From an uncultured Victivallales bacterium (GTDB taxonomy: Bacteria > Verrucomicrobiota > Kiritimatiellia > UBA8416 > CAYOBW01), in the NCBI GenBank assembly GCA_964555035.1, contig CAZKRK010000046.1:1-29411 (forward strand): DNA of 29,411 nucleotides. The letters are read 5' to 3'. The notes below the pieces were generated by a model. The model was given only the letters and a program-made list of their open reading frames with translations. It did no database searches and had not been told where the DNA came from. Below, piece after piece: positions 1,582-29,205 of this stretch. Position 1 is the stretch's first letter. Every line of letters begins with the position of its first letter. The position numbers were made by a program, and so were the translations under genes.

Positions 1582-1890
1582 CCCCCGTTCTGGCACTTCC
1601 CCAACACCTACGATCAACCGCCCTACAGCTCGGTGCGCAAAGGCGACTGGAAACTGATCTACCAGCACGTCACCCGGAAACTGGAGCTGTACAACCTTCG
1701 CGAGGATATCGGCGAGAAGAACAACCGTGCGCAGAGCAACCCGGCGAAGTTGAAGGAGTTGGCGGGCGCGCTGAGCGAACACCTGCGGGCATGCGGCGCC
1801 CCCATGTCGATCGACAAGGCTACAGGGAAGCGCATCGAGTACCCGTCGGAACTCTCAGTGGGCCGGATTTGTAATCCGGCCGAGAGATAG
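1582..1890 (+). pseudogene. 3'-terminal remnant (about 100 aa) of a second sulfatase gene, in frame just after the TAG of the upstream sulfatase
   Basis: The translation PPFWHFPNTYDQPPYSSVRKGDWKLIYQHV...LELYNLREDIGEKNNRAQSNPAKLKELAGAL matches the conserved sulfatase C-terminal subdomain (FWHxP, GDWKLI, LYNLxxDxxExNN). No N-terminal catalytic part is present. Its last codons and stop lie inside the TIR of the adjacent MITE-like element. Confidence 0.6.
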
Positions 1891-1984
1891 TCGAGGATGT
1901 TATCGAGAATGAACGGACCAAGGTCAGGCCATTCTCCCGGCATGCTCCACATTCTCTCGGCCGGATTACAAATCCGGCCCACTG
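1856..1984. repeat. MITE-like element with perfect 32-bp terminal inverted repeats (1856-1887 and 1953-1984), each carrying an inner 9-bp-stem hairpin ggccggatt-tgt-aatccggcc
   Basis: IR-L cagtgggccggatttgtaatccggccgagaga is the exact reverse complement of IR-R tctctcggccggattacaaatccggcccactg. The spacer is 65 bp. The element sits between two convergent sulfatase remnants. Confidence 0.75.
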
Positions 1985-2032
1985 AAGACGCACATGATTT
2001 GGGCGGTATCCGTCATTCCGCCGCGCTCCCGG

Positions 2033-7589: not shown

Positions 7590-7738
7590 TCCTTGTAGGT
7601 TACTGGGGTTCCTGGTCCCTCCCGGACAAGAAATCGGATACTAACGAAAAGGAGCCGAACAAATCAAGCACCGGTTCGCTGAGTCCGCGGCCGCGGGCGC
7701 ATCTCGATCTGCTGCACTTGCCGAGTGGCCCCCACCGG

Positions 7739-7784
7739 GATAAGCCCGGCGGGGGGGCCTCGGCAAATGCAACAAATCGGCGCC
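7739..7784 (+). promoter_or_regulatory. About 45-bp upstream motif (gataagcccggcgggg...aaatgcaacaaat) 72 bp before the helicase ATG
   Basis: The motif recurs at 17775-17824, upstream of the lipoprotein gene. It shares the identical 13-mer aagcccggcgggg and an aaRtgcaRcaaat block. The spacing to the ATG is nearly the same (72 vs 68 bp). Confidence 0.4.
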
Positions 7785-7856
7785 ATTGTCAATCCGCCCC
7801 GTTTGTGCCATTTTTCGAGCATTGTGAAGACCTCCACCGAGAACATTGCGGCCGGG

Positions 7857-10800: not shown

Positions 10801-13073
10801 CGGACGTCCGCGACATGCAGGCCGCCATCGAACGGGGACTCATGTTCCTGCACGAGCAGAATGTCATTGTCTTGCAGCAAGGACTGGCGGTGTTCCGCTC
10901 GGCCATGACCGTTCGTGTGCTGCCTGAATCGAAAGGGCTGCGCTACACGCAGGACCAGTACCAGGCGCTCGAGCACCACTACCGCGAACGTGTGTTCCAG
11001 GTGCACGTCATGAACGAATACGCCCGGTACGGGATCGAGAAGATCCAGGAGGCGTTGGCTCTGGTTGTGGCATACTTCACAATGGAGAGGGAAGCCTTCA
11101 TTGCCCGCTTCTTCGGATCACGCCGCGAGCTCTTGGAACGTGCAACGACGGCACGCTCATACCGTCGGATTGTCGATGCCCTGGGCAACCGCGAACAGAT
11201 CCGCATCGTGACGGCGCCGCTCAACAAGAACATGCTCATCCTGGCGGGACCCGGATCGGGAAAGACGCGCACCGTCGTCCACCGGTGCGCCTACCTGTTG
11301 CGCGTGAAACGCGTGCGCCCCTCTTCCGTTCTCGTCTGTTGCTTCAACCACAAGGCAGCGCTCGAATTGCGCAGACGCCTCGCGGAGCTTGTCGGCCGCG
11401 ACGCCTGCGGCGTCACGGTTCAGACATACCACGGATTGGCCCTGCGACTGCTGGGGTTCTCGTGCAGCGCGATGAAACCGGACGCTCGCGATTCGCTCGA
11501 CTTCGACAGGTTGATCGTGGACGCCGTGGACCTTCTTGAAGGCGGAAAGGCCGCGGCTGGCCTCGAATCCGACGAAACGCGTGACCGGCTCTTGGCGGGA
11601 TACGAACACATCCTCGTCGACGAGTATCAGGACATCGACGAGGCGCAGTACCATATGATCGGCGCAATCGCCGGGCGGACCCTTGAAGATGGCGATCGCA
11701 AGCTCACCATCCTTGCCGTCGGAGACGATGACCAGTCCATCTACGGTTTCCGCGGCGCGAACGTCACGTTCATTCGCCGTTTCTGCGAAGACTTCGAGGC
11801 CGCCACACACCACCTCGTCGAGAACTACCGGTCTACCCGCTACATCATCGAAGCGGCGAACAGCGTCATTGCCCGCAACCGTGATCGAATGAAGTGCGAC
11901 TTGCCTATTCGCGTTGACGAAGGCCGCCAGCTTTCCCACCCCGGGGGGGCGATTGCCTCACTGCATCCGGAGACAAACGGACGCGTTGCCGTCGTCTCCG
12001 TGCGGGATGACGCCGCACAGGCTGTCGCCGCCGGGACCGAGATTGAGCGGCTTCGGACCCTTGGCGCGAAAGACTGGTCTCGAACGGCAATCCTCTCGCG
12101 AACGCGCCGCGATTTGTCGCTCGTACGCGTCGCGTTGGAGGCGAAATCGATTCCGGTCCAATGGCCTCTGCAGCGCAACAAGCTGCCCTCGATCTACCGA
12201 ATGCGCGAGGTCCATCGTGCTCTCGGCACACTCCGCGAGATGCGAAGCAGCAACAGAACGGCATCGGAGCTCTTCGAGCGCGTCGTCATGCCACCCGGTT
12301 CTTGCGGCAACGCGTGGGCGGGCATGATCGAATCCCTCTTGAGCGCATGGCAGGACGAAACCGGCAACGCCAGCCTTCCCGTTGGTGCTTGCGTCGATTT
12401 CCTCTACGAGTCGCTCGCACAGCGCCGGAGAGACGAACAGTTTGGCGTCGGCGTCGTCCTGAACACGGTCCACGCGGCCAAGGGAACGGAGTACGACCAC
12501 GTTATTCTTTGCGGCGATTGGTCCAATGGGAGCAATGCCGCGGACATCGAAGAAGAACGCCGCGTCTTCTACGTCGGCATGACACGTGCGCGGCATTCGC
12601 TGTGCATTCTCGATCGCGCCGATACGCGCAACCCGTTCCGTGGAGAGCTGGTTGGCCCTTGTTTCGCCCCGCGACATGAGATGGGCCCCGCGAACGGCAA
12701 TCTCGCCTATCGCGACTACACGCTGCTTGGTCTCGATGACATGTTCCTGGACTTTGCGGGCCGGCAGCCGGCCCGCCACCGCGTTCACGAGGCTCTGTCC
12801 GAGCTGAAGCCCGGAGCATCTCTGCAGGCACAAGCGCAGGATGGCCGCGTCTGGCTGGTCCATGGGGCAGGGACAACGATCGGCGCTTTGTCCGCACAGG
12901 CGACAGAACTCTGGCGCGATCGCCTCGACGACATCGACTCGATCCGCGTGGTCGGAATGTACACGCGCCTGCGCGAGGACATCGGCGACAGGAACTTCCT
13001 TGCCCGCATCCGCTGCGACTCGTGGGAAGTCCCGGTCTGCGAGGTCCGCTCCATGCCGGCCGGGCAGGACTGA
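7857..13073 (+). CDS. Giant multidomain DNA helicase: N-terminal DEDDh 3'-5' exonuclease, RecQ-family helicase core, and C-terminal UvrD/PcrA-type SF1 helicase (1738 aa)
   Basis: Exonuclease motifs are Exo I LFLDLETT, Exo II GHNIVDHDLPAL and Exo III DPVEDARLAATLF. RecQ motifs are PTGGGKSLCYQLPA (motif I), VVDEAHCLSKWGHDFRPDY (DEAH plus the RecQ signature) and FHAGMTPPEKKRTQDAFLDGELRVICATNAFGMGIDKDDV, ending at QEAGRAGRD (motifs IV-VI). UvrD motifs are AGPGSGKT (I), ILVDEYQDID (II), VGDDDQSIYGFRGA (III), ENYRSTRYI (IV), VHAAKGTEYDHV (V) and VFYVGMTRARHSL (VI). The start is placed at MRQNRLFLDLETT so that Exo I lies at the N-terminus. The ORF track starts it at 7725. Confidence 0.85.
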   Translation: MRQNRLFLDLETTRSGRIRKVGAVFGDRVVSSAHDGGVQRALSILDRIAGQAECLAGHNIVDHDLPALRHCRADLKLLQVPVIDTLYLSPICFPENPYHCLVKDYKLVSETVSDPVEDARLAATLFEDEIASLIGIRESSPELFKALHLLTTKTSPSDPGSHATGMRHLFRSLGADAVTDDALECVRGMAAQYGCRTAAVRLDHTNLTSAQKCWALAFVLTWLRVSGSDSVIPPWVRHRHPSVSVFLHALRDVPCDDADCRYCAETHSPEKQLKRFFGFDCFRPTPHDGNGGSLQRRIVLAGMQGESLLAILPTGGGKSLCYQLPALVRSVRRGQLTVVISPLQALMKDQVDGLQRRTGLENAAALYGLLTPPERGDVLRRLRTGDIAVLYVSPEQLRNASFTRAISQREVGCWVVDEAHCLSKWGHDFRPDYLYIGRFMRELAKRQGCPLPPVACFTATAKRDVAEEIMAYFQRETAMPVALYQGGVERENLCFEVQTVSAPAKLGRIDELLHDRLDANGNEGSAIVFRTTRRLAEETAEYLCNQGWQAAFFHAGMTPPEKKRTQDAFLDGELRVICATNAFGMGIDKDDVRLVVHGDSPASIENYLQEAGRAGRDRGRADCVLLYDEEDCEQQFRLGAFSELSRRDIAQILRGLRKATRTHGSDSVVITTGELMRDEDVDTTFGPEDLSADTKVRAAMSWLERAGFVERNQNRTNVFQARLLVRSTGEAEEKLAQLGLSDAESRLWLAIVREMINAGETDSLTVDGLALLPEFQGYLKTGAEFIPHHVVREGRSQEYLSSKVLKVLNSMTNVGIMKKDTLLTAFIAYKVANHSRVRFDRVCASDREMLKVLMEEEPDPEGWLPLNLRLLNQTLLDRDVSASPPFLRRLLRSLSEDGKGFSGQRGSIELRHVGRDAYRVRLRREWAQIAELAERRRRVAGVLLDAIVSKVPSATPPRADLLVEFSFEELTAALNRDLALRSDVRDMQAAIERGLMFLHEQNVIVLQQGLAVFRSAMTVRVLPESKGLRYTQDQYQALEHHYRERVFQVHVMNEYARYGIEKIQEALALVVAYFTMEREAFIARFFGSRRELLERATTARSYRRIVDALGNREQIRIVTAPLNKNMLILAGPGSGKTRTVVHRCAYLLRVKRVRPSSVLVCCFNHKAALELRRRLAELVGRDACGVTVQTYHGLALRLLGFSCSAMKPDARDSLDFDRLIVDAVDLLEGGKAAAGLESDETRDRLLAGYEHILVDEYQDIDEAQYHMIGAIAGRTLEDGDRKLTILAVGDDDQSIYGFRGANVTFIRRFCEDFEAATHHLVENYRSTRYIIEAANSVIARNRDRMKCDLPIRVDEGRQLSHPGGAIASLHPETNGRVAVVSVRDDAAQAVAAGTEIERLRTLGAKDWSRTAILSRTRRDLSLVRVALEAKSIPVQWPLQRNKLPSIYRMREVHRALGTLREMRSSNRTASELFERVVMPPGSCGNAWAGMIESLLSAWQDETGNASLPVGACVDFLYESLAQRRRDEQFGVGVVLNTVHAAKGTEYDHVILCGDWSNGSNAADIEEERRVFYVGMTRARHSLCILDRADTRNPFRGELVGPCFAPRHEMGPANGNLAYRDYTLLGLDDMFLDFAGRQPARHRVHEALSELKPGASLQAQAQDGRVWLVHGAGTTIGALSAQATELWRDRLDDIDSIRVVGMYTRLREDIGDRNFLARIRCDSWEVPVCEVRSMPAGQD

Positions 13074-13139
13074 GTTCGTCGATCGCTCCGCCTATGCCGC
13101 CCCTCCGGGGCTTGTTTCCATGCTCGACGCATGTGCGGC

Positions 13140-13251
13140 AAACGTAGGTCCGATTTGCAATCGGACCCAACTCCGGTCGGGTCTGGTCAGCCGTGGCGTT
13201 ATCTGAGGCAACCAGCGGGGTTGGGTCCGATTGCAAATCGGACCTACGTTT
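13140..13251. repeat. MITE-like element with perfect 32-bp TIRs (13140-13171 and 13220-13251), each with an inner hairpin ggtccgatt-tgc-aatcggacc
   Basis: IR-L aaacgtaggtccgatttgcaatcggacccaac is the exact reverse complement of IR-R. The spacer is 48 bp. The inner hairpin has the same architecture as the 1856-1984 element, with two compensatory stem changes (c:g to t:a and g:c to c:g). It lies between the convergent helicase genes. Confidence 0.75.
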
Positions 13252-13350
13252 ACCGCTCACGCACGTTCCGGCCCTCGGGGAGTCACGAAGCATCCGCTTC
13301 TTCCGCACGAAGGTGTCACAGTTGTTTCCGAGAGGTAAGGTAGTCTGGGC

Positions 13351-16122
13351 CTACGGTCGCGCCAACTCCGCCTCGACGCGCGCGACGAGGTCCAGTCCCT
13401 CTTGGAGAGCACCATCGCCGTCGCTTCCGCCGCCGTCGAAGGCGGCCAGGGCAGAGACGAGGGCTGCGGGTTCTGTCGGGAGCTCGGAACCGTCGCCGTC
13501 GGGCTTTGTTCCGGGACCGTGGTGCAGGACGACGACCGCTTCGCGCCCCGCTCCCAGAACCGTCGCAAGGTGCGGGAGTGCCTGCTCCGCAAGACCCACA
13601 CCCGCCAACGCCTCGACGGCCTTGCGCTCGGCTGCGGTCGTTGCCCAGACCTTGCGTGCCGCGGCACGGTGGAGCTTCGGCTTGGGCCGTTCCCGCGGGG
13701 GCAATGGCGTGTAGCCGTCGGCGGCATGTACCGTATCGATGTCGGCGGACAGCGTGAGGATGCCCATTTCCTGAAGCCGCAGCAGCATCGCGTGCATCTC
13801 CGGCGTAATGACCTCGGCCGTGGCGCCTGCCGCCTCGGCCGTATCGCGAAGCGCATCGAGGTCCGTTCCGGGGCGCGACACGACTACCGTCCCGCCGGTT
13901 TTGGCGTTGCGTTCGATGCCGAGGATGATGTCCGCGTGGCGCGCCGTGAGTTCTTCCTTCAGTGTCCTGGGTTTCTCTTCGCGAGCCGGTGGGGCAGGCG
14001 CCACGGGCTCCCCGCCCAGCAATTCGCCGACGCGCGCCGCAAAGGCCTGGCGACCGGTTTTGCCGCTCGGCCGTTCCTCGAACGCGGCCCCGTCCAGCAC
14101 GGAGTCGGCCAGCGCGGTCTTGTACGCCAACTTGTCGAGCATGGCGCTTTCGATCGAGCGTTCCGCGACCAGGTTGACGACGCGCACGCTTCGCTTCTGG
14201 TGCTTGCGCCAGGCCCGCGCGATGCGCTGCTCCAGCTTCGCCGGATTCCAGGGCAGGTCGAGGTTGATCACGATGTTCGCGGCCTGCAGGTTCAGACCCG
14301 CGCCGCCTGACTCGGACGAGAGAAACACGCGGCAGTCGGCATTCTGCTTGAACATGCGGATCTGCTCGCGCCGTTTCTGCTGGGGGATTCTGCCGGTGTG
14401 TTCCGCGAACCCGATTCCTTTTGCGGTCAGCAGTTCCTTTACGAGGTCGAGCATGCGCACCCACTCCGAGAATATGATGACCTTCGCCTCCGGGTCGTCA
14501 CCCAGCAGGTCGTCGAGGATGTTCTCCAGCTCCTCCAGCTTCGGACAGTCACGGCACTCGGGGTCAAGGATGTAGGGCGTGTCGCAGATCATGCGCATGC
14601 AACCCAGCAAGAGCAGAAGGCGTTCCTGCTCCTTCTTCGTCAACGGGCGCCGTTTCATGATCGAAACGAGCATGGCCACGTCGTATTCGATCTCGGCATA
14701 GCGCGCCCGCTGCTCTTTTGTCATGGAAACGAAGAAGTTCTTGTCGGTACGTTCCGGCAAGGCGTCTTCGACGTCGCTCTTGCGGCGGCGCAACATCACC
14801 GACGAGACCGTGCGGTGCAGCTTGTCCAGGTTCCTGGGGCGGACCTCGTTGTCGGAAGTGAGTTCCATAAACGCGCGCTGAAAACGGAAGAGCGACCCGA
14901 ACACGTGTGGGTCGACGAACTCGACCAACGAGTACAACTCCTCGATGCGGTTTTCCAAGGGCGTTCCGGTCAGCACGAATGCGTATGGACTGCGCACCCG
15001 CTTGATCGTTTTGGCGGTCTTCGTGGGCCAGTTCTTGATGCGTTGCGCCTCATCGAGGATGACGAGGTCCGGAACGAGCAGGCGGTTGATATCGTCCACG
15101 TCATTGCGTACCTGCTCGTAGTTGCAGAGGCTGTACGGATGCTCCTCGGCATAGAGGCGCAGGCGGGCGGGCCGCGATCCGAAGACCGGCTTGGCCTGGC
15201 GGCCGGTGAACTGCATGATCTGGTCCTCCCACTCCGCCTTGAGCGAAGCGGGGCTGACCACCAGCACGCGGCGCACGCGGCCGGACTGGCGCAGCAGCTC
15301 GGCGGCGGCAATCGCCTGCACCGTCTTGCCGAGCCCCATCTCGTCGGCCAGCAGGGCGCGACCGGTGAAAGCCAGATGTGCCATGCCCGCTTTCTGATAG
15401 GGGTACAAGGGAAGGACAACGGGGTTGTCGGTGCGTTTGGCGGCTGCCACGTCGCGATCGAAATGCCGCCGCAGCTCGTCAAGGTCCGTCCTGAACCTCT
15501 CTCGCTCGAGCCAGTAGTCGACGTGTTCGGACAGACGCACGCCCTTCCGCGCCGATGCGGTGAGCATGGCCGTGGCGCGTTCCGCGGCCGTGCACGCGTC
15601 CGTATTGCCGGCCAGGGCGAAGCCTTCATCGCCGAACAGCGACCCCACGCGCCTCTCGACCGCGGCGATGCCCGCTGCCGGCCGCAACAGGCGCAACCGC
15701 GGATTGGGTCCGCGAACGTCCATGAAAATCTCGTAGGCAGGCGATCCCGCCTTTGCCGCGCGGGCAAAGGCGCGCTTCTTGCGGTGCTGGATGAACTGCC
15801 GCACACGCTCGATGTGCTTGCAGCACCCGAGGCGGTTCATGCGGTAGTCCTGACACGAACAACTGTTCAGGTTCTCCGACAGACTCCGAATCTCGACGCG
15901 GTAGGGTTGCTCCCACTGCGTGGACGAGACCTCGAAGAGACCGTGGAAATCGTCACGCATCGCCACGCGGGTGACCTGCGCCTTTTCCTTCTCGGCACTC
16001 TCGCGCCGCAGCACGATGCTCTGCTCATCCGTCGGAAAGCCAACCCGTTTCGGTGGCCGTTTCTGGACCTGTTTGGCCTTCTTGCTTCTGCGTTTCTTCC
16101 GCGTCTTCCGTTCCAAGCTCAT
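13351..16122 (-). CDS. SNF2-family (Swi2/Snf2) DNA-dependent ATPase/helicase with an N-terminal SWIM zinc finger
   Basis: The SWIM finger is CSCQDYRMNRLGCCKH. SNF2 motifs are LADEMGLGKT (I), LVILDEAQRIKN (II, DEAQ), VLTGTPLENRIEELYSLVEFV (III), and the C-terminal helicase domain LSSESGGAGLNLQAANIVINLDLPWNPAKLEQRIARAWRKHQ. A basic N-terminal tail and an Ala/Gly-rich region of about 250 aa at the C-terminus are uncharacterised. Confidence 0.9.
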   Translation of the reverse strand: MSLERKTRKKRRSKKAKQVQKRPPKRVGFPTDEQSIVLRRESAEKEKAQVTRVAMRDDFHGLFEVSSTQWEQPYRVEIRSLSENLNSCSCQDYRMNRLGCCKHIERVRQFIQHRKKRAFARAAKAGSPAYEIFMDVRGPNPRLRLLRPAAGIAAVERRVGSLFGDEGFALAGNTDACTAAERATAMLTASARKGVRLSEHVDYWLERERFRTDLDELRRHFDRDVAAAKRTDNPVVLPLYPYQKAGMAHLAFTGRALLADEMGLGKTVQAIAAAELLRQSGRVRRVLVVSPASLKAEWEDQIMQFTGRQAKPVFGSRPARLRLYAEEHPYSLCNYEQVRNDVDDINRLLVPDLVILDEAQRIKNWPTKTAKTIKRVRSPYAFVLTGTPLENRIEELYSLVEFVDPHVFGSLFRFQRAFMELTSDNEVRPRNLDKLHRTVSSVMLRRRKSDVEDALPERTDKNFFVSMTKEQRARYAEIEYDVAMLVSIMKRRPLTKKEQERLLLLLGCMRMICDTPYILDPECRDCPKLEELENILDDLLGDDPEAKVIIFSEWVRMLDLVKELLTAKGIGFAEHTGRIPQQKRREQIRMFKQNADCRVFLSSESGGAGLNLQAANIVINLDLPWNPAKLEQRIARAWRKHQKRSVRVVNLVAERSIESAMLDKLAYKTALADSVLDGAAFEERPSGKTGRQAFAARVGELLGGEPVAPAPPAREEKPRTLKEELTARHADIILGIERNAKTGGTVVVSRPGTDLDALRDTAEAAGATAEVITPEMHAMLLRLQEMGILTLSADIDTVHAADGYTPLPPRERPKPKLHRAAARKVWATTAAERKAVEALAGVGLAEQALPHLATVLGAGREAVVVLHHGPGTKPDGDGSELPTEPAALVSALAAFDGGGSDGDGALQEGLDLVARVEAELARP

Positions 16123-16269
16123 GTGCGCCTCAATACGTTGTCCGTGAATAAGCGATGTCCGGCAAGACTAGCCATGGAGAGGGGCGGGGTGCAAGAACTC
16201 TCGCAACCCTAACGACAGAAACGTGACCGATGACGTGGGGTAGCCATAGAAGCAAGCTCGCCGGCGCTC

Positions 16270-16297
16270 AGGCTCACACCTTGTAAAGTGTGAGCCT
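16270..16297. terminator. Hairpin aggctcacac-cttgtaaa-gtgtgagcct overlapping the ArsR stop codon
   Basis: It has a 10-bp perfect stem. It is nearly identical to the palindrome at 16897-16930 at the other end of the same gene. Confidence 0.5.
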
Positions 16298-16907
16298 ACC
16301 CCTCCATGCAAGCGATTCGTACCAACTCATGCGCAAGAGGCGATAACTTCCGCGCCAGGGCGTATGTCCCGCGTTGGTTCCGGACGACAATGTCACGGCG
16401 CACCAGTTTGCTCACATGACGCTTCATCGCCGGCAGAGAAATGCCGCATCGAACAACCAGTGCCACAATCGACAACCCCGGCGAGCGATTCAGTTCCCGC
16501 ACGATCCGGATGCGTCTAGGATGTGTGAAAGCTGTAAGGTTCCGAAACGCCCCCTCGATGGCGCCTAGGCGCCTGGAAAGCTGTCGTTTCATCGCGGTGA
16601 CAAGGGCCTCGGAAAACGAGATCGTGCTGTTTGGAGACACAGTGTACACGACCCAACGACTCGTCCGCCGCGCATCCAGGATGCCTCTGGCGTTGAGAGC
16701 CCGAAGACATTGGCTCGCACTGGATTCCGATATGCCTACCTGCGCGGCGACATCGGAGACGCACTGCCGTTGATGTCGAAGCAGAAACCGCAACACAGCG
16801 AGCCGTCTCCGGTTCGCCAATGCCCGGCATGTGCGCCAAAGCGTAGGACTGAGTGAACGCGCGTTCTCCATACCATCTCCAAGTAGACACCTCAACGCCA
16901 GGCTCAC
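16296..16907 (-). CDS. Transcriptional regulator with two tandem ArsR/SmtB-type winged-HTH domains
   Basis: The first wHTH is CRALANRRRLAVLRFLL...VSDVAAQVGISESSASQCLRALNARGIL. The second is RRIRIVRELNRSPGLSIVALVVRCGISLPAMKRHVSKLVRRDIV. The track start is a GTG at 16907. An internal ATG start (MENARSL) at 16871 is possible. Confidence 0.7.
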   Translation of the reverse strand: MSLALRCLLGDGMENARSLSPTLWRTCRALANRRRLAVLRFLLRHQRQCVSDVAAQVGISESSASQCLRALNARGILDARRTSRWVVYTVSPNSTISFSEALVTAMKRQLSRRLGAIEGAFRNLTAFTHPRRIRIVRELNRSPGLSIVALVVRCGISLPAMKRHVSKLVRRDIVVRNQRGTYALARKLSPLAHELVRIACMEG

Positions 16908-16930
16908 ACGTTATAAGGTGTGAGCCTGGC
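16897..16930. promoter_or_regulatory. 13-bp-stem palindrome gccaggctcacac-gttataag-gtgtgagcctggc overlapping the ArsR start region (candidate operator)
   Basis: It is identical in core to the 16270-16297 hairpin (caggctcacac ... gtgtgagcct, loop ttRtaaRg). ArsR-family proteins bind dyad-symmetric operators that overlap their own promoters. Confidence 0.5.
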
Positions 16931-17062: not shown

Positions 17063-17170
17063 GGTGACACCATTGATTGATGATTCCCGATTGATGATTT
17101 GTGATTTTCGAAGTACTTCACAAATCATCAATCATAAATCGCTAGTCATCAATCAGACGAAGGTGTCACC
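17063..17170. repeat. AT-rich compound palindrome of about 108 bp (ggtgacacc ... ggtgtcacc) with internal gattgatgatt direct repeats and perfectly complementary arms ttgatgatttgtga/tcacaaatcatcaa around ttttcgaagtactt
   Basis: Seen directly. It is very AT-rich against a background of about 67% GC. It lies in the shared upstream region of the ArsR gene and the lipoprotein gene. Confidence 0.6.
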
Positions 17171-17360
17171 TTCATTTTCCGCGGTGCAGTCATCCCGGTC
17201 AGAGCGTAGATTCAACGTAGCCGCCCAGAGGACAAGTGTTTGCGACGAAGCCACGGTTCTGTGTGCGGCCGGGCGGGGTAAGGTTCTCTGGATGGAGTAG
17301 AAGGAAGTCCTCGTCTGTTTCCCAAAGTGCACTCACGTTTGCTCTCAACGCCGGTGTCGC

Positions 17361-17460
17361 CCACAACCCAAGTGTGGCATAGGTAGAAAAACGGGAAGGT
17401 AAGAAGATGGGAGAATTGACGGCATCATCTTTCTACCATCCCATCTTTCTGCCTATCATC
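17361..17460. repeat. Copy 1 of a 100-bp conserved structured element (the second copy is at 28361-28460)
   Basis: It shares 76 of 100 identities with 28361-28460, gap-free and collinear. It folds as an extended hairpin. The outer stem is ggtagaaaaacggg/cccatctttctgcc and the inner stem is ggtaagaagatg/catctttctacc. Each arm is a tandem duplication of a GG(Y)AGAAARATGGG-like unit. The loop contains a conserved attgaSgg. Confidence 0.6.
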
Positions 17461-17575
17461 TCCTACACAGGGCTTGGCCAGATTTCTAGTTCTTCTTGCG
17501 CCCCTCGCCCGGCTAAGCCACTACGCCTCGGCCGGGACTTCTCCCGGCAGAGGGGGGCCGCATTCGTGGGCAGTC

Positions 17576-17636
17576 CATTGATGATTGTCGATCGCCGATT
17601 GCCGATTTCTGAAGTTCGAAAACCAGCAATCAGACC
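17576..17636. repeat. Degenerate, more GC-rich relative of the 17063-17170 AT-rich palindrome
   Basis: The blocks cattgatgatt, ccgattg, gatttctgaagttcgaaaa and caatcagac run collinear with the left element. Confidence 0.4.
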
Positions 17637-17705
17637 GGACTGCGCGTCGTCGTCACTGCAGACTGAACAGTCTTTTGCCTATTCGCCCGCTGTAGGCGGC
17701 CTAGC

Positions 17706-17732
17706 GGCGGAGGACCGCCGTCTCCAGTGGCG
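17706..17732 (+). promoter_or_regulatory. 27-bp motif ggcggaggaccgccgtctccagtggcg, copy a
   Basis: The same motif, with one substitution, occurs at 20940-20966, 20 bp upstream of the membrane-protein ATG. It also occurs inverted at 20828-20849. It contains the inner dyad ggcgg-N4-ccgcc. Confidence 0.5.
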
Positions 17733-17774
17733 TCTCCGCAGGGCGCGTAGTCGCTTTCTGTGTGTAATAGGCAG

Positions 17775-17824
17775 GACAAGCCCGGCGGGGCTACTCTGAA
17801 AGTGCAGCAAATTGCAGATGCGCC
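17775..17824 (+). promoter_or_regulatory. Second copy of the aagcccggcgggg...aaRtgcaRcaaat upstream motif, 68 bp before the lipoprotein ATG
   Basis: See the 7739-7784 feature. The 13-mer is identical and the spacing to the start codon is conserved. Confidence 0.4.
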
Positions 17825-20811: not shown

Positions 20812-20827
20812 CGCTCGGAGACTGGTA

Positions 20828-20966
20828 CTGGAGACGGCGGTCCTCCGCCGTTACGGAGCAAGGTGTTGAGCACAAACGGAAACAGAAGTGAACGAAGTTC
20901 CCGCATGTTCCACCAAGTGCGCACTCACTTGCGCGCAACGGCGGAGAACCGCCGTCTCCAGTGGCG
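20828..20966. promoter_or_regulatory. Inverted pair of the 27-bp ggcggagRaccgccgtctcc(agtggcg) motif flanking about 90 bp, immediately upstream of the membrane-protein gene
   Basis: 20828-20849 ctggagacggcggtcctccgcc is the reverse complement of the motif core. 20940-20966 is the forward copy. Confidence 0.5.
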
Positions 20967-24477: not shown

Positions 24478-25860
24478 TCAATCCCCCCGCGACATCTTCA
24501 CCAGCTTCGGATCGAAACGGGCCAGGATTTCGACCAGATCCTTCTGGGCCGCCATTACTTTTTCGATATCCTTGTACCCCATCGGCACTTCGTCCAGGCC
24601 GGCGGAGATCAGAACCACATCGCGCTCCGCCAGGAACTTGCGGGCCTCGTTCCAGGTGAAGGATTTCTTCGTCATGGTGCGGCTCATGGCGCGGCCGGCG
24701 CCGTGCGAAGCGGAGTTGAGCGAATCGGGCTCGCCCCTGCCGCGCACAACGTACCCCGGCGTCGCCATCGATCCCGGAATAATGCCAATCGCGCCGGCGT
24801 CGGCCGGCGTCGCGCCCTTGCGGTGCACGATCACCTCCTCGCCGAAATGGGTCTCCTTCCACGCGAAGTTGTGGTGATTCTCGACGTCGAGCAACACCTT
24901 GGCCTTGAGAAAGCGCGCAATGCCGCGGTGGATCAACTCATGGTTGGCCGCCGCATAGCGCCCCATCAACTCCATCGCCGCCCAATACTCTCCGCCGGCT
25001 TCGCTCTCCAGATCAAACCACGCCAGGTGCTGCAGCTCCCGCGGCAGCTCGGGATGTTGCTTCATGGCCAGCTTGCTGTAGTGCTGCGCTACGCTGCCGC
25101 CCGTGCCGCGGCTGCCGCTGTGGCTCAACAGGGCAAAATAGACGCCCGGCTCAAGCCCCAGCTCGGCCCGTTCGAGCGTCAACGTCCCGAACTCCACAAA
25201 ATGGTTCCCGCTTCCACTTGAACCAAGCTGCTTCCACGCCTTGTCCCTGTTCCGCCCCGTCACCGGACTCACCGACCAATCCTCGTCCATCACCGCGTGC
25301 TCGCGACGATGCTCGAAACCGGAACCGACGCCGAAACGGGTTTCCGCGTCGATCGCCTTGCGCAACTGGCCTTCCGCGCCGCGGAGCATGGAAACGGGCA
25401 TGTCCAGCACCGTCATCTTCATGCGGCAGGCGATATCCATGCCGACCGCGTAGGGAATCACCGCGCCGCGCGTGGCCAGCACGCCGCCGATCGGCAGACC
25501 GTAGCCAGTGTGTGCGTCCGGCATCAGCGCCCCAACCGCCGAGACCGGCAAACGACACGCGTTCTCCATCTGCTGCACGGAAGTCCGGTCGAAGTCCGAT
25601 CCCCACGCCCGGTAGGACGCTGGTTTAGAGCGTGGCACGAAGCGTGCCCGCGCCGTGGAGGTCTTGATCATCGAGCGCGCCAACGCGCCGACCAGGTCGT
25701 GTTCCGCATGGTCTTTCGGCGCCTCGGCCACGGCCGCGATCAACGCCCGCACGTCGCGCTTCTTCATCCCGAGCCCCGCCGCCTTGCGCGCCGCTTCGAT
25801 CGCCAGATGAATGGGCTCCCCTCCCGGGATCCCCAGGTTGTACAGTTCACGCTTCTTCAT
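24478..25860 (-). CDS. rtcB: RNA ligase RtcB
   Basis: RtcB motifs are MPDAHTGYGLPIGG, SGSGNHFVEF, IPGSMATPGYV and SASHGAGR. An N-terminal extension of about 90 aa is present. The start at 25860 forms an ATGA overlap with the rtcA stop. The track's alternative upstream start is 25878. Confidence 0.9.
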   Translation of the reverse strand: MKKRELYNLGIPGGEPIHLAIEAARKAAGLGMKKRDVRALIAAVAEAPKDHAEHDLVGALARSMIKTSTARARFVPRSKPASYRAWGSDFDRTSVQQMENACRLPVSAVGALMPDAHTGYGLPIGGVLATRGAVIPYAVGMDIACRMKMTVLDMPVSMLRGAEGQLRKAIDAETRFGVGSGFEHRREHAVMDEDWSVSPVTGRNRDKAWKQLGSSGSGNHFVEFGTLTLERAELGLEPGVYFALLSHSGSRGTGGSVAQHYSKLAMKQHPELPRELQHLAWFDLESEAGGEYWAAMELMGRYAAANHELIHRGIARFLKAKVLLDVENHHNFAWKETHFGEEVIVHRKGATPADAGAIGIIPGSMATPGYVVRGRGEPDSLNSASHGAGRAMSRTMTKKSFTWNEARKFLAERDVVLISAGLDEVPMGYKDIEKVMAAQKDLVEILARFDPKLVKMSRGD

Positions 25861-26897
25861 GATACCCTCACATGCCATTTGAGCCGGTCAGGCTTGGTGA
25901 CCGTCACACCTACATCCAGAAACTGCTTCAACACTTCGACATTCGTGGCCGAATGCCTCGTCAGGGGCAGCGTCGTGAACTCGCCCTCTCCGGCCACCGC
26001 CATGGGCACCAGGAGCTGGTCCGCAAGGTAACGCCCAACTGGTACGTCTGACGTCAGGTACTCGCGTACCGGCTTCACAACCGAACGCGCGACCCGCTCG
26101 GACGGGACTCCCCTTTCGCCAAAACCGGTGAAGACTCCGCTAACGTGTTCGCTTTCGAGGATGACCATGACGACGTTGCCCGGTCCGCGCGGCGCCGTGA
26201 CCTGCTCAATGCGCGTGGCACCGTCCACGATCGGCAGCAGCCTCCCCAGGGTCGCAAGCTCCTTCTCCGCGATAGACCGTGGGAGCTGCGAGACTATCGC
26301 CACGGCCTCGTGCCGTACAAGCTCGCCGCGTTCGAGAAGCTCGATGGGCGCAAGCCCGCCGGCCGGAGCAATATCCACCGTGAAACACCCGCCGCCCGCC
26401 GGGTAAAAGCCGGGACGGTCGAGAGTGGCTGTCACCGTCGGCCCCATCCGGTTGACGATGGGCAGAAACGAGCGCGTCAGGAAGTCAAAAGGCGGCGCGT
26501 ACGGATTGTGAGTGCCGCCCTCCAGCGTCAGGCGCGACGGGCCGTCGGCCAACAGCAATGCCGGCAGCACCGTCTGCAGAACCAGCGTGGCGCTGCCCGC
26601 CGTGCCGACGGCAAAACGGTATTCGCCTGCCTTCGCGCGCTTCGGCCTGAACGTCAGTCCGCGCGACTTCATCTCGTTGCCGTCTACGGACGCGGAACTC
26701 ACCGCGGCCGCGGCATTCACGGCCGTGAGATGCTGCCGCAGCAACCCCGGCTTGCGCCGTCCCGCACGGATATTCGTGATCCGAAACGGCTGCCCCGTAA
26801 CGAGGGAAAGTGCCAGGGAAGTCCGCAGCACCTGTCCTCCGCCCTCACCAAATGAACCATCAATCGTAATCATTGTGATTCTCTCTCCCATGCTCAT
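25857..26897 (-). CDS. rtcA: RNA 3'-terminal phosphate cyclase RtcA
   Basis: MITIDGSFGEGGGQVLRTSLALSLVTGQPFRITNIRAGRRKPGL matches the RtcA N-terminal signature, and the catalytic His lies in the context RQHLTAV. The start is placed at MSMGERITM. The track ORF runs further upstream to 27158. Confidence 0.85.
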   Translation of the reverse strand: MSMGERITMITIDGSFGEGGGQVLRTSLALSLVTGQPFRITNIRAGRRKPGLLRQHLTAVNAAAAVSSASVDGNEMKSRGLTFRPKRAKAGEYRFAVGTAGSATLVLQTVLPALLLADGPSRLTLEGGTHNPYAPPFDFLTRSFLPIVNRMGPTVTATLDRPGFYPAGGGCFTVDIAPAGGLAPIELLERGELVRHEAVAIVSQLPRSIAEKELATLGRLLPIVDGATRIEQVTAPRGPGNVVMVILESEHVSGVFTGFGERGVPSERVARSVVKPVREYLTSDVPVGRYLADQLLVPMAVAGEGEFTTLPLTRHSATNVEVLKQFLDVGVTVTKPDRLKWHVRVS

Positions 26898-27043
26898 GCA
26901 CGGATCCGCCTTCGCCGAGCTACGGCGGGACACGACGGGTTTCCGCGCTACCGTCCGTCGCCCACGACCTCCCTCCCCCGTCGACAAGCCGAAACAGGTT
27001 CGGGACAAGACCCGCAAGCCCCGCGCTTCGTAGAGCGTCCGCA

Positions 27044-27066
27044 GGTGCGTCTTGGAAAGACGCACC
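27044..27066. other. Perfect hairpin ggtgcgtctt-gga-aagacgcacc between the SPFH gene and rtcA
   Basis: It has a 10-bp stem. It is flanked by a long-range imperfect inverted repeat, cttcgtagag (27028-27037) / gtctacgaag (27131-27140). It is a possible attenuator or terminator upstream of rtcAB. Confidence 0.4.
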
Positions 27067-27204
27067 GGAGGGCGCAGGCCGGGCAAACCCCACCTCTCGT
27101 CTCCGGCCCGCGCGACGCGCGGGCCTCCGGCGAGTCTACGAAGACACGCCCCCGCCACCGGGGGCCGGGGTACGCCCCTGCGTACCTCCGGCTCCCCGGG
27201 CCGA

Positions 27205-28311
27205 TTAGAGCAGGTTTACCACCCGCTCGGCCAGTCCCTTTTCACCCAACACAACGTTGAGCTTCGAGTTCTCGGCCACCTTTTCCAGAACCTCCAGTTC
27301 CTTCAGCCTCATGAGGGCGGGATTCCCGTCCATCAGTTTGGCCGTATTCACCTGGCTGCGCATCGCAGCCGTCTCTTCACGACGCGCAATCACGTTGGCC
27401 TCGGACGCTTTGCGCGCCTCGATGACCTTGTTGAGCAGCGCCTTCATGTCGCCGGGCAGGATGATGTCCTTGACGCCCAGGGCGACAACGTTCACGCCGA
27501 AGGCTGCGGCCCTCTTCCGCATTGCGGATCCGAGCTCGTCGGTCACGGCGGACTTGTCCGCCAGCAACAGGTCAAGCTCGCGCGTGCCGATGATGCCCCT
27601 GAGGGCAAGCTGCGCCTCACGGTAGAGCGCCTGGTCGACGTCAGCGACAGCCTCGACCGACTTGCGCGCGTCCGTCACGCGGTAGGTCACCACCGCGTTC
27701 AGTCGCAACGAGACCTTGTCGGCCGTCATGATCTCCTGGCCCGACACATCCAGCACCTTCTCGCGCATGTCTACGTGATAGAGCTTGACCTTGCCGACAC
27801 GCTTCCACGACGCGTACTGGCCGGGCGCGAGAGTCTTGACGTATTTCCCGTCACGGAAGTACACGCCCAGGTGACCCTCTTCGACCGTGAACGCGTTCAA
27901 CACGTCCGTAGTCACTGCCGACTTCAGGATCACGTTCAGGTCGGGGTGGTCGATCAGCACGTCACGCGCGTCGACGATGTCCGCCTTCACCTCCTTGAAC
28001 TGCGTCCAGAGCACGTAGCGACCCGAATCGAGGACGCCGTTGAACCTGCCGTCAATCCATACGAGCGCGCGCTCGTAGTCCTTCAGGTCCAACACCAGGG
28101 CGTCGTCGCCCAGGGCAGCGGACTTGACGATCACGTCGAGGTCCGCGTGTGCCAACCAGGGATCACGCTGCGACACGACGTCGACGCGCACCTTGTTGAA
28201 GGGGTCGAAGAACCAGTGACGCCCCGCGTCGAGGATCCCCTTGAACTCCCGATCCTTGAAGACCAGTCCCTTCTCGTACGTTCTAATTTTCACTTTTCCG
28301 ATGACAACCAT
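27205..28311 (-). CDS. SPFH/band-7 (stomatin/prohibitin/HflKC-like) domain protein with an N-terminal triple repeat of about 45 aa
   Basis: The C-terminal SPFH core is EIMTADKVSLRLNAVVTYRVTD...ALRGIIGTRELDLLLADK...AFGVNVVALGVKDIILPG. The N-terminus has three repeats of a G-(L/H)-x-V-(F/W/Y)-x-D-(R/G)-x-(F/Y)-x-G-x-L-x-(A/S)-G-x-(H/Y)-x-x-W motif. Confidence 0.85.
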   Translation of the reverse strand: MVVIGKVKIRTYEKGLVFKDREFKGILDAGRHWFFDPFNKVRVDVVSQRDPWLAHADLDVIVKSAALGDDALVLDLKDYERALVWIDGRFNGVLDSGRYVLWTQFKEVKADIVDARDVLIDHPDLNVILKSAVTTDVLNAFTVEEGHLGVYFRDGKYVKTLAPGQYASWKRVGKVKLYHVDMREKVLDVSGQEIMTADKVSLRLNAVVTYRVTDARKSVEAVADVDQALYREAQLALRGIIGTRELDLLLADKSAVTDELGSAMRKRAAAFGVNVVALGVKDIILPGDMKALLNKVIEARKASEANVIARREETAAMRSQVNTAKLMDGNPALMRLKELEVLEKVAENSKLNVVLGEKGLAERVVNLL

Positions 28312-28360
28312 CTTCCCCCTCCTTCCTTTCTCCTATTCGTTTCCCTAACGTGGGCACGGC

Positions 28361-28460
28361 CAACAACCCAAGTGTGGCACAGGCAGAAAAATGGGTTGGC
28401 AGAAAGATGGGGATATTGAGGGTGTCGTTCCTCTGCCAGCCCATTTTTCTGCCTTTCATT
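28361..28460. repeat. Copy 2 of the 100-bp conserved structured element, 50-150 bp upstream of the SPFH gene start
   Basis: It holds a perfect 14-bp inverted repeat, ggcagaaaaatggg (28383-28396) / cccatttttctgcc (28440-28453). These enclose the inner stem ggcagaaagatg/cgttcctctgcc and the loop atattgagggtgt. It is 76% identical to 17361-17460. Confidence 0.6.
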
Positions 28461-28885
28461 TCTATCCCGGCAACGCGCTCTCTCGTTCCTACTCTCGTTC
28501 CCCCAGTTCTCAAGAAGACCCTCCAGAGATGAACTCCATGACAATCACACTCAGGCCGCGGAGCGTCGCTTGAGCGCCGCTTGTTCCACCGTCACCGGCG
28601 GGCGGGGGATTGTCCGCCGCGGTTCCGAGGAACCGGGGACAGACCTCCATTCCGCCCGCCGGGCGGTCAAACTTCGCGGCGCGGTATCTGCGCGCTGCAA
28701 GGCGTCCGTCTTGTGCTGCCGGCGAAAGCGTCGCCCGAGCTCCCTGGCGCGTCTCGCGGGGGGACAGCCCCCCGCGCCGTGCTCGCTTGCTCGGTCAACC
28801 TCGATCGCCGGCCGATCCATCATGCGTCCATCTCCTTCGGGCATCGTTGAGGCCCTTGCAGGGCCAACCGGGTTTTCAGCCCAGG

Positions 28886-28959
28886 TGTTCGGTACGGGAA
28901 TCGAACCCGCAACACATGCATCCCAAGTGCATTGCTCTACCCAATTGAGCTAACCGATC
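28886..28959 (-). tRNA. tRNA-Pro (anticodon TGG), 74 nt, with one A2:A71 acceptor mismatch and a genomic 3' CCT (no encoded CCA)
   Basis: Manual cloverleaf: acceptor GATCGGT/ACCGAAC; D arm GCTC-AATTGGGTA-GAGC; anticodon arm ATGCA-CTTGGGA-TGCAT with U33 and G37; variable loop GTGTT; T arm GCGGG-TTCGATT-CCCGT; discriminator A. Confidence 0.55.
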
Positions 28960-29205
28960 CAACCTGCCTTCACGATCGTCGCCAGAACCCCTGCCGGTAC
29001 ACACGGGCCGGAACCTGCAGCACCAACAGCCGTACCGGGCCGGGTGCCGCGGTGGCCAACCCTGCGCCGCGGGCCGGATCGTGCCGGCGGTCGGGGTGTA
29101 CCGCAGCGGGTGTGCCAGGTTGAAAGCAAAAGTGATGACGCATACATAAGCTCTTCATGATTACGGATTAACGGTGATGGATCTTTGCGCCGCGTCGAAT
29201 CGGCA

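What the first reader, a model, noticed from the sequence alone, without database searches (positions are those of the whole stretch)
17361..17460. Conserved 100-bp structured element present twice (17361-17460 and 28361-28460)
The two copies are 76% identical and gap-free. Each folds into an extended hairpin of about 26 bp. Each arm is a tandem duplication of a GG(C/T)AGAAA(A/G)ATGGG unit, and the loop core attgaSgg is conserved. The differences between copies include paired changes, ggtag...ctacc vs ggcag...ctgcc, that preserve pairing. One copy lies in the 5' region of the SPFH gene and the other in the large ArsR/lipoprotein control region. The first possibility is a cis-regulatory or small RNA. 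The second is a four-half-site protein-binding array.
Basis: seen in the sequence. Interest (0 to 1): 0.65.

Follow-up and report, generated by a model that had tools for sequence, protein, structure and literature searches.

The report
Two-copy palindromic intergenic repeat, lineage-specific
The two 100-base hairpin sequences are real and related, but they look like leftover copies of a small palindromic repeat found only in this one bacterial lineage, not a conserved regulatory RNA, so the finding is fairly ordinary.

Summary
17359-17462 and 28359-28462 are 80/104 identical without gaps, and homology extends to about 131 nt. Each copy folds into a long hairpin. Each arm carries two GGYAGAAARAYGGG units: 7 matches in the window, all inside the two copies, against 1.06 expected.

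The regulatory-RNA reading is not supported.
- Relatives with the same gene order lack the element at both loci.
- A covariance model found no third copy in about 188 kb of related DNA.
- Scans of genome and metagenome collections with the 19-nt head, and of the viral collection with two other motifs, found no further copy.
- Rfam gives only generic hairpin noise.
- The two "compensatory" pairs are what transition-biased decay of a perfect palindrome produces by chance (P about 0.11).
- Wobble and A.C mismatches show no strand bias.

Best reading: two old, diverged copies of a lineage-specific foldback (MITE/REPIN-like) repeat. The four 14-bp units are probably protein-binding sites. Copy B landed in the transcribed leader of a sigma-54/RtcR-driven operon (tRNA-like gene, conserved block, slipin, rtcA, rtcB).

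Mobility is inferred, not shown: there are only two copies, no target duplication and no transposase. Interest is low. The more interesting side observation is the tRNA-like gene with a variable anticodon at the head of the Rtc operon.

The parts
17336..17466 (+). Copy A of the repeat. Parts: left extension 17336-17358, head 17359-17378, long hairpin 17379-17456, short tail.
   Evidence: Alignment A3, blastn, covariance model R1 at 154.9 bits.
28338..28466 (+). Copy B of the repeat, same orientation as A. It lies 27-155 nt upstream of the slipin ATG (28311, - strand).
   Evidence: R1 at 150.1 bits. Identical in 7 public contigs of the same organism that hold the full upstream region, apart from 1-2 base changes outside the element.
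17359..17378 (+). Head of copy A (GCCCACAACCCAAGTGTGGC), a small 5-6 bp stem-loop. This is the best conserved part: 19 of 20 positions identical between copies.
28359..28378 (+). Head of copy B (GCCAACAACCCAAGTGTGGC).
17379..17456 (.). Long imperfect palindrome of copy A: 28 of 32 in-register pairs. Units at 17382-17395 (+), 17398-17411 (+), 17424-17437 (-), 17440-17453 (-). Loop about 17411-17424.
28381..28454 (.). Long palindrome of copy B: 23-bp near-perfect outer stem, 29 of 32 in-register pairs counted from 28379. Units at 28382-28395 (+), 28398-28411 (+), 28440-28453 (-), plus a degenerate one at 28424-28437 (-).
   Evidence: (I17).
29102..29117 (-). Context: candidate sigma-54 promoter TGGCACacccgCTGCg. 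It would drive the transcript that contains copy B.
   Evidence: Equivalent TGGCAC-N5-TTGC-like sites lie 130-183 nt upstream of the tRNA-like gene in relatives L010, L012 and L013.
28884..28959 (-). Context: tRNA-like gene (Pro, anticodon UGG), the first gene of the RtcR-controlled operon.
   Evidence: Rfam tRNA 60 bits, ARAGORN, orthologues in relatives.
28512..28622 (-). Context: leader block of about 110 nt, conserved at nucleotide level in all five lineages. Copy B is inserted between it and the slipin ribosome-binding site.
24478..28311 (-). Context: operon of slipin/SPFH (27205-28311), RtcA (25857-26873 as called on the public contig, 338 aa; the ORF extends to 27158) and RtcB (24478-25878). 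RtcR is divergent, starting about 220 nt beyond the window end.
   Evidence: Pfam, gene calls on public contigs.

Best explanation
These are two old, diverged copies of a small, non-coding, palindromic (foldback) repeat specific to this lineage. They were added to two intergenic regions, either by a MITE/REPIN-like transposition or by ectopic copying.

At birth the element was a near-perfect inverted repeat. Each arm carried two 14-bp GGYAGAAARAYGGG sites 16 bp apart, next to a 20-nt head. By inference, the four sites are binding sites for the protein that moved or made the element. Two sites per end resembles transposon ends that carry several binding sites.

Since then both copies have drifted by ordinary, mostly transitional, substitutions.

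Copy B landed in the leader of the sigma-54/RtcR-driven operon, between a conserved leader block and the slipin ribosome-binding site. It should therefore be transcribed on the - strand as a hairpin of 23-30 bp. That is a by-product of its location and may affect mRNA processing or stability. Nothing shows that it was selected for this.

Shown: homology, palindromy, the unit structure, absence from relatives at both loci, absence of further detectable copies, and a substitution pattern consistent with neutrality. Inferred: mobility, protein binding and transcription.
For: (1) Absent at the slipin locus. Four relatives with 69-75% identical slipin keep the order rtcR, sigma-54 promoter, tRNA-like gene, conserved block, slipin. 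The distance from block to ATG is 29-99 nt in them and about 204 nt here; the excess matches the element's length. Model R1 finds nothing in them.

(2) Absent at the lipoprotein locus. Relatives with 60-75% identical lipoprotein plus Wzy-like pair have upstream intergenic regions of 97-207 nt, against about 985 nt here, and no element.

(3) Substitution pattern. Of 16 stem differences, 12 are transitions. Single-sided changes give 4 G.T and 6 mismatches, 5 of them A.C. The neutral simulation reproduces the observed 2 compensated pairs (P=0.11) and 7 broken pairs (P=0.20).

(4) Units are better kept than spacers and loop, as expected for binding sites at element ends.

(5) The same 29 kb holds other two-copy families of long intergenic palindromes (I1/I2, D11/I5, D10/I6/I8), so such repeats are common in this genome.

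(6) No Rfam family, promoter or terminator signal.
Against: Only two copies are known, and I could not scan the rest of this organism's genome.

Neither copy has a target-site duplication. No transposase or RAYT gene lies in the roughly 38 kb available.

The copies are 23% diverged, so there has been no recent mobility.

The 20-nt head lies outside the palindrome yet is the best conserved part: 1 of 20 positions differs, against 23 of 84 elsewhere. A simple terminal-inverted-repeat element does not predict this.

Both copies have the same orientation relative to the nearest - strand gene, which a functional 5'-leader element would also predict.

The relatives compared are fairly distant, so absence there dates the gain only loosely.
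Confidence: 0.5

Rival explanations
1. Cis-acting RNA hairpin in 5' leaders. Transcribed on the - strand, the 23-30 bp duplex would act as an RNase III-type processing site or a stability/attenuation element. It would separate the tRNA-like and leader RNA from the slipin-rtcAB mRNA. Copy A would do the same for the ArsR-like gene.
For: Copy B lies inside the predicted sigma-54 transcript, with no terminator-like site between promoter and slipin. The helix is long and stable. Both copies have the same orientation relative to the next - strand gene.
Against: Absent from every relative's leader. Copy A is about 465 nt from the ArsR-like start codon (16871) and no promoter is known upstream of it. 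Covariation is not above neutral expectation and there is no strand bias in wobble pairs.
Confidence: 0.15
2. Four-site operator for a DNA-binding regulator. The layout would be two direct plus two inverted 14-bp sites, bound for example by a dimer of a two-domain protein. It would co-regulate slipin-rtcAB and a gene next to copy A.
For: Four units share one motif with variable spacers. An ArsR-like protein with two winged-helix domains is encoded next to copy A.
Against: The ArsR-like gene has its own conserved flanking palindrome, AGGCTCACAC-N8-GTGTGAGCCT. It is retained around an 81% identical homologue that has no 14-mer units nearby. That palindrome, not the 14-mer, is its likely operator.

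Homology between the copies covers the head, loop and extension as well as the sites, which indicates common descent rather than convergent sites.

Unit centres are 16, 26 and 16 bp apart, so neighbouring sites face opposite sides of the helix.

Copy A is more than 400 bp from both flanking start codons.
Confidence: 0.15
3. One-off segmental duplication of an intergenic fragment, with no mobility and no function, followed by neutral drift.
For: Exactly two copies are known. No target duplication and no transposase. The substitution pattern is consistent with neutrality. Copy A sits in a lineage-specific region of about 1 kb made of assorted repeats.
Against: It does not explain how a near-perfect 30-bp palindrome with internal tandem units arose. 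It also does not explain why both sites are lineage-specific additions rather than one ancestral source and one copy.
Confidence: 0.12
4. Pair of paralogous small-RNA genes on the + strand. Each would have a small 5' stem-loop with an exposed ACCCAAG loop, then a long hairpin and a pyrimidine-rich tail acting as terminator.
For: The architecture resembles a seed hairpin plus terminator. In copy B the hairpin is followed by UUUCAUUUCU. The head is highly conserved.
Against: No promoter-like or terminator-like site was called. Copy A's tail is not U-rich. No homologues elsewhere. No Rfam match above noise.
Confidence: 0.08

Closest known systems
[quoted passage not shown]
   Same: Size of about 100-130 nt, non-coding and intergenic. 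Arms are long inverted repeats that fold into one hairpin. Present in one lineage and absent from syntenic relatives. Can land in 5' leaders and be co-transcribed.
   Different: No target-site duplication. Only two copies are known. No parent IS with matching ends was found. A conserved 20-nt head lies outside the inverted repeat.
REP / REPIN elements mobilised by RAYT transposases (Di Nocera et al. 2013, PMC3733652)
   Same: Extragenic palindromes. REPINs are inverted doublets that form long hairpins of about 100 nt, and they leave no target duplication.
   Different: The arms are not themselves palindromic REP units. The GTAG tag is present in three units of copy A but is GCAG in all units of copy B. 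No RAYT gene was seen and the copy number is unknown.
Transposon ends with several binding sites per end (IR/DR-type ends; IS21, Tn7 and Mu ends). This comparison rests on my own knowledge.
   Same: Two directly repeated protein-binding-size units in each arm, inverted between arms.
   Different: This is a resemblance of layout only. No such transposase or full-length element is present in the available sequence.
Y RNA / YrlA genes in rsr-yrlBA-rtcBA operons (Chen et al. 2014, PMC4201824; Hughes et al. 2020, PMC7790460)
   Same: A non-coding structured sequence inside an RtcR-controlled RNA-repair operon, next to a tRNA-like module.
   Different: There is no Ro/Rsr gene. No Rfam Y RNA or YrlA match, even at E up to 10. 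The hairpin is 430 nt away from the tRNA-like gene. It is missing from relatives' operons. A second copy lies outside any rtc operon.

Membership tests
MITE | Terminal inverted repeats forming the element ends | tested here: met
   In-register arms pair at 28 of 32 (A) and 29 of 32 (B) positions. However, homology continues about 43 nt beyond the left arm as the head plus extension.
MITE | Target-site duplication flanking each copy | tested here: not met
   Flanks were inspected at both possible boundaries. There is no direct repeat.
MITE | Multiple dispersed copies in the genome | tested here: inconclusive
   Two copies in about 38 kb of this organism.
MITE | Presence/absence polymorphism relative to related genomes | tested here: met
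   Absent at both syntenic loci in relatives.
MITE | Parent IS or transposase with matching ends | tested here: not met
   No transposase among the Pfam-annotated genes of the window and L028. The unit motif occurs only inside the two copies. Only about 38 kb could be examined.
REP/REPIN | Conserved GTAG or CGTC tag at the foot of each palindromic unit | tested here: not met
   GGTAG occurs in three units of copy A; GGCAG occurs in the fourth and in all units of copy B.
REP/REPIN | Cognate RAYT gene and tens to hundreds of copies | not testable with these tools
   This needs the whole genome. The organism is not in the genome collection, because the head scan did not return it.
Conserved cis-regulatory RNA or riboswitch | Conservation at the same position relative to orthologous genes across species | tested here: not met
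   Missing from the slipin leaders of L010-L013.
Conserved cis-regulatory RNA or riboswitch | Covariation above neutral expectation | tested here: inconclusive
   Only two sequences. Two compensated pairs, P=0.11 under neutral palindrome decay. RNAalifold covariation term is -2.75 kcal/mol.
Known Rfam family | Score at or above the family's gathering threshold | tested here: not met
   Only the tRNA passes. At E up to 10 there are only miRNA-precursor models, far below threshold.
Small RNA gene | Own promoter and intrinsic terminator | tested here: not met
   No sigma-70-like or terminator-like site at either copy. No correctly spaced sigma-54 site in the head: TGGCAC is followed by AGGCAGAAA. 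Planctomycete-type promoters are not covered by the scan.

The most novel reading that the evidence does not exclude
The element could be a functional RNA module of the Rtc RNA-damage response.

On the - strand, the strand on which copy B is transcribed with the operon, the conserved head folds into a 5-bp stem with a 7-nt loop, CUUGGGU. That is an anticodon-arm look-alike carrying UGG. The tRNA-like gene of this genome's own RtcR operon has the loop CUUGGGA, whereas the orthologous tRNA-like genes of relatives carry other anticodons.

The head, attached to a long duplex, might act as bait or decoy for an anticodon nuclease. Alternatively it might be a processing signal that releases the operon's non-coding RNAs.
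Probability: 0.05. Interest if true: 0.7.

Novelty: new member of a known kind. Interest (0 to 1): 0.2.

Why it matters
As a decaying palindromic repeat it matters little. It adds one more small foldback repeat family in an uncultured PVC-group bacterium. It also illustrates that two-sequence "compensatory changes" in a palindrome are expected by chance when substitutions are mostly transitions.

Its practical relevance is that copy B interrupts the leader of an RtcR/sigma-54 RNA-repair operon and could alter processing or translation of slipin-rtcAB in this lineage.

The surroundings are more valuable than the element. In five lineages the operon begins with an orthologous tRNA-like gene whose anticodon differs between lineages. 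That is relevant to how Rtc systems sense or buffer tRNA damage.

Tried and rejected
- **Rfam.** At gathering threshold on the window and at E up to 10 on both intergenic regions, only a tRNA and generic miRNA-hairpin noise appear.
- **Sigma-54 promoter in the head.** TGGCAC/TGGCAT is present but there is no GC at the -12 position. Rejected.
- **RtcR upstream activating site.** The element lies about 650 nt downstream of the only well-spaced sigma-54 site, and nothing like the 14-mer lies upstream of that promoter. Rejected.
- **attL/attR of an 11-kb island.** The copies are direct repeats exactly 11,000 bp apart. However, rtcR and the promoter outside the segment are syntenic with slipin-rtcAB inside it in all relatives. 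Rejected. The round spacing is also present in public contigs, so it is not an artefact.
- **Integron attC, retron, terminator.** There are no R'/R'' cores, no reverse transcriptase, and no U-tract on the strand of any upstream gene.
- **Coding potential.** ORFs starting inside the units (17407-17799 and 28391-28573) are not conserved in frame.
- **ArsR-like protein as the binder.** It has its own conserved palindrome.
- **Head motif scans.** The 19-mer found a Phycisphaerae MAG (L017), metagenome contigs L019/L020 with 25-nt tandem repeats of the head, and L021/L022, each followed by different hairpins. R1 scores them at 13 bits or less. Whether they are related is undecided.
- **Viral collection scans** returned only single-strand chance matches, or nothing.
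- **TRF** does not report the two-unit tandems.
- **DNA unavailable.** Two JGI relatives (P0004, P0006) gave gene maps but no DNA.

Full report
**1.

The two stretches 17359-17462 and 28359-28462 align without gaps at 77% identity. By my count that is 80/104 identical, with 17 transitions and 7 transversions. With one 2-nt indel, the homology extends left to 17336 and 28338, so the element is about 131 nt. No other similarity links the two intergenic regions.

Each copy folds into a long hairpin on either strand. Energies range from -40.7 to -50.3 kcal/mol and z-scores from -3.5 to -4.9.
- Copy B has a 23-bp near-perfect outer stem (I17).
- In register, 29 of 32 positions pair in B and 28 of 32 in A.
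- Each arm carries two GGYAGAAARAYGGG units 16 nt apart. With up to 2 mismatches the motif matches 7 times in the window, all inside the two copies, against 1.06 expected.
- The loop core ATTGA(C/G)GG is shared.
- A 20-nt head (GCC[C/A]ACAACCCAAGTGTGGC) sits to the left of the palindrome. It forms a small stem-loop and is the best conserved part, at 19/20.

**2. Context**

Copy B lies 27-155 nt upstream of the start codon (28311, - strand) of a slipin/SPFH gene. RtcA and RtcB follow that gene. Public contigs of the same organism show RtcR, the sigma-54 activator of Rtc operons, transcribed divergently just beyond the window end.

A well-spaced sigma-54 site, TGGCACacccgCTGC, lies at 29102-29117 on the - strand. 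It is 158 nt upstream of a tRNA-like gene (28884-28959, -, Pro/UGG).

Four relatives have 69-75% identical slipin. L010, L012 and L013 keep the same order: rtcR, sigma-54 site, tRNA-like gene, a nucleotide-conserved block of about 110 nt, slipin, rtcA, and rtcB except in L010. L011 starts at the tRNA-like gene, so its rtcR and promoter are not on the contig. Copy B is therefore expected to be transcribed on the - strand as part of the operon leader. No terminator-like site intervenes.

Copy A lies in an intergenic region of about 1 kb. On one side is an ArsR-like protein with two winged-helix domains (true start 16871, 191 aa). On the other is a 972-aa lipoprotein that is followed by a Wzy-like gene.

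**3. The element is lineage-specific at both loci**

At the slipin locus, the conserved leader block ends 29, 60, 98 and 99 nt before the ATG in the four relatives, but about 204 nt before it here. The excess corresponds to the element.

At the other locus, relatives with 60-75% identical lipoprotein plus Wzy-like pairs have upstream intergenic regions of 97-207 nt and no element.

A covariance model built from the two copies (R1) finds only the two copies themselves. It was run on 178 kb made up of the window, about 9 kb more of this genome and the related loci, and separately on a contig carrying an 81% identical ArsR-like gene.

Collection scans found no further copy:
- The 19-nt head pattern was run against 596 Gb of genomes and against the metagenome collection. 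It returned only unrelated coding hits plus a Phycisphaerae-type repeat family that shares the head but continues with different hairpins.
- Two other motifs were run against the viral collection. They returned only chance matches, or nothing.
- This organism's own genome is not in the genome or metagenome collections, since neither scan returned it. Its total copy number therefore remains unknown.

**4. The covariation argument does not hold**

Of the 16 differences in the 32-pair stem, 12 are transitions.
- Three pairs changed on both sides. Two of them remain paired in both copies (17396/17439 and 17400/17435).
- Ten pairs changed on one side only. These give 4 G.T wobbles and 6 mismatches, 5 of them A.C.

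An A.C on one strand is a G.U on the other, so the near-equal numbers show no preference for either strand as RNA.

I simulated neutral decay of a perfect 32-bp palindrome with the observed number of changes and the observed transition fraction. It gave at least 2 compensated pairs in 10.5% of runs, and at most 7 broken pair-instances in 19.6%. A double hit by two transitions always restores a Watson-Crick pair. That is why compensation is cheap here. The data fit drift from a perfect palindrome and do not require selection on structure.

**5. What it most likely is**

The features are these:
- a near-perfect palindrome at birth,
- internal tandem units that are better conserved than the spacers and loop (12/56 vs 8/16 positions changed),
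- a non-coding, intergenic location,
- presence in one lineage only,
- a genome that holds several other two-copy families of long intergenic palindromes within the same 29 kb.

Together they point to a small foldback repeat of the MITE/REPIN kind. The four 14-bp units would be the binding sites of whatever protein mobilised it. Mobility is an inference. There is no target-site duplication, no transposase in the roughly 38 kb available, only two copies, and 23% divergence. The conserved head outside the palindrome is not explained by a simple inverted-repeat element. It could be part of the element or a preferred target.

**6. Rivals**

- **Leader hairpin.** An RNase III processing or stability hairpin is mechanically plausible for copy B, but it is not conserved in any relative.
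- **Regulator array.** No candidate binder remains. The neighbouring ArsR-like gene is flanked by its own palindrome, AGGCTCACAC-N8-GTGTGAGCCT (16269-16297 and 16899-16928). That palindrome is retained around the 81% homologue in L050, where no 14-mer units occur.
- **+ strand small RNA.** There are no promoter or terminator calls and no homologues.
- **One-off duplication.** A single neutral duplication cannot be excluded.

**7. Comparison with known families**

The element works like a MITE or foldback repeat, but I do not file it as a member of any named family. The target duplication and parent IS tests were not met, the REP tag test was not met, and copy number could not be tested. It is not a Y RNA or YrlA: there is no Ro gene, no Rfam match, and it is absent from relatives' operons.

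**8. Verdict**

The RNA interpretation is not supported, and the protein-site reading remains open. The element is a new member of a known kind, small palindromic intergenic repeats, and is of low interest (0.2).

The most novel reading not excluded rests on the - strand head, which looks like an anticodon arm. Its loop CUUGGGU matches the UGG anticodon loop (CUUGGGA) of this genome's operon-encoded tRNA-like gene. I noticed this after the fact, and an 11-mer with one mismatch between the two sequences is not rare by chance. My rough estimate is 0.1 expected before the shared loop position is taken into account. I give this reading about 5%.

Noticed in passing
window 28884-28959 (-); L010 2111-2184; L011 62-134; L012 2503-2577; L013 2462-2527: A tRNA-like gene sits between rtcR and slipin in five lineages; in four a sigma-54 site lies 130-183 nt upstream of it (L011's contig starts too late to show one). 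The copies are orthologous, with D and T arms nearly identical (about 75% column identity). Their anticodon loops differ: Pro UGG, Tyr GUA (twice, on a short class I scaffold), Ile AAU and Lys UUU. This suggests a non-decoding tRNA mimic or bait within the RNA-repair operon, analogous to the YrlA tRNA-like module. Four literature searches, none aimed squarely at it, turned up no description of it.
   Followed up: partly
window about 28512-28622 (-); L001 about 2690-2800: A block of about 110 nt between the tRNA-like gene and slipin is conserved at nucleotide level in all five lineages (…AGCGGCGCTCAAGCGACGCTCCGCGGCCTGAGTGTGRTTGTCAT…TCTCCnGAGGGCTCTT). Conservation runs past the stop codon of the arginine-rich ORF that gene callers place there. 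A leader RNA motif is therefore more likely than a protein. There is no Rfam match.
   Followed up: partly
window 17359-17378 and 28359-28378, read on the - strand: The element's head folds as a 5-bp stem with the 7-nt loop CUUGGGU. This resembles the anticodon arm of the operon's tRNA-like gene (loop CUUGGGA; shared CACUUGGG.UG). It may be chance.
   Followed up: partly
L017 4690-4830 (Phycisphaerae MAG DATKXO010000234.1); L019, L020; L021, L022: The head motif CCAACCCAAGTGTGGCAC occurs as 4-6 tandem 25-nt repeats, followed by two short hairpins enclosed by AAGTGTGGC/GCCACACTT. In L017 this lies upstream of an ECF sigma factor gene. It is a separate repeat family that shares only the head.
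   Followed up: partly
window 16269-16297 and 16899-16928; L050 3888-3915 and 4514-4541: The ArsR-like gene with two winged-helix domains is bracketed at both ends by the palindrome AGGCTCACAC-N8-GTGTGAGCCT. The same arrangement is conserved around an 81% identical homologue. It is probably the protein's own operator, or a cassette boundary.
   Followed up: partly
window 1855-1985 and 13129-13262: Another two-copy family of long palindromes, about 130 nt with 45-47-nt arms at 91% complementarity. The copies share the core GGnCCGATTTGCAATCGGnCC. One lies after the sulfatase gene and one between the convergent helicase and SNF2 genes.
   Followed up: partly
window 17702-17732, 20827-20855, 20934-20966: A repeated GC-rich hairpin (CGGCGGAGGACCGCCGTCTCCAGT) flanks the lipoprotein gene on both sides. 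It is REP-like or terminator-like.
   Followed up: no
window 17074-17155 and 17577-17615: An AT-rich palindrome with 41-nt arms built from GATTGATGATT-like words, with a partial third copy 500 nt away. Both lie in the same lineage-specific intergenic region of about 1 kb as copy A.
   Followed up: no
window 7725-16122: A 1782-aa fused DEAD/UvrD helicase lies next to a 923-aa SNF2 helicase. They occupy the position where relatives carry unrelated genes (a PAS histidine kinase and others). This may be an inserted defence-type island ending near copy A.
   Followed up: no
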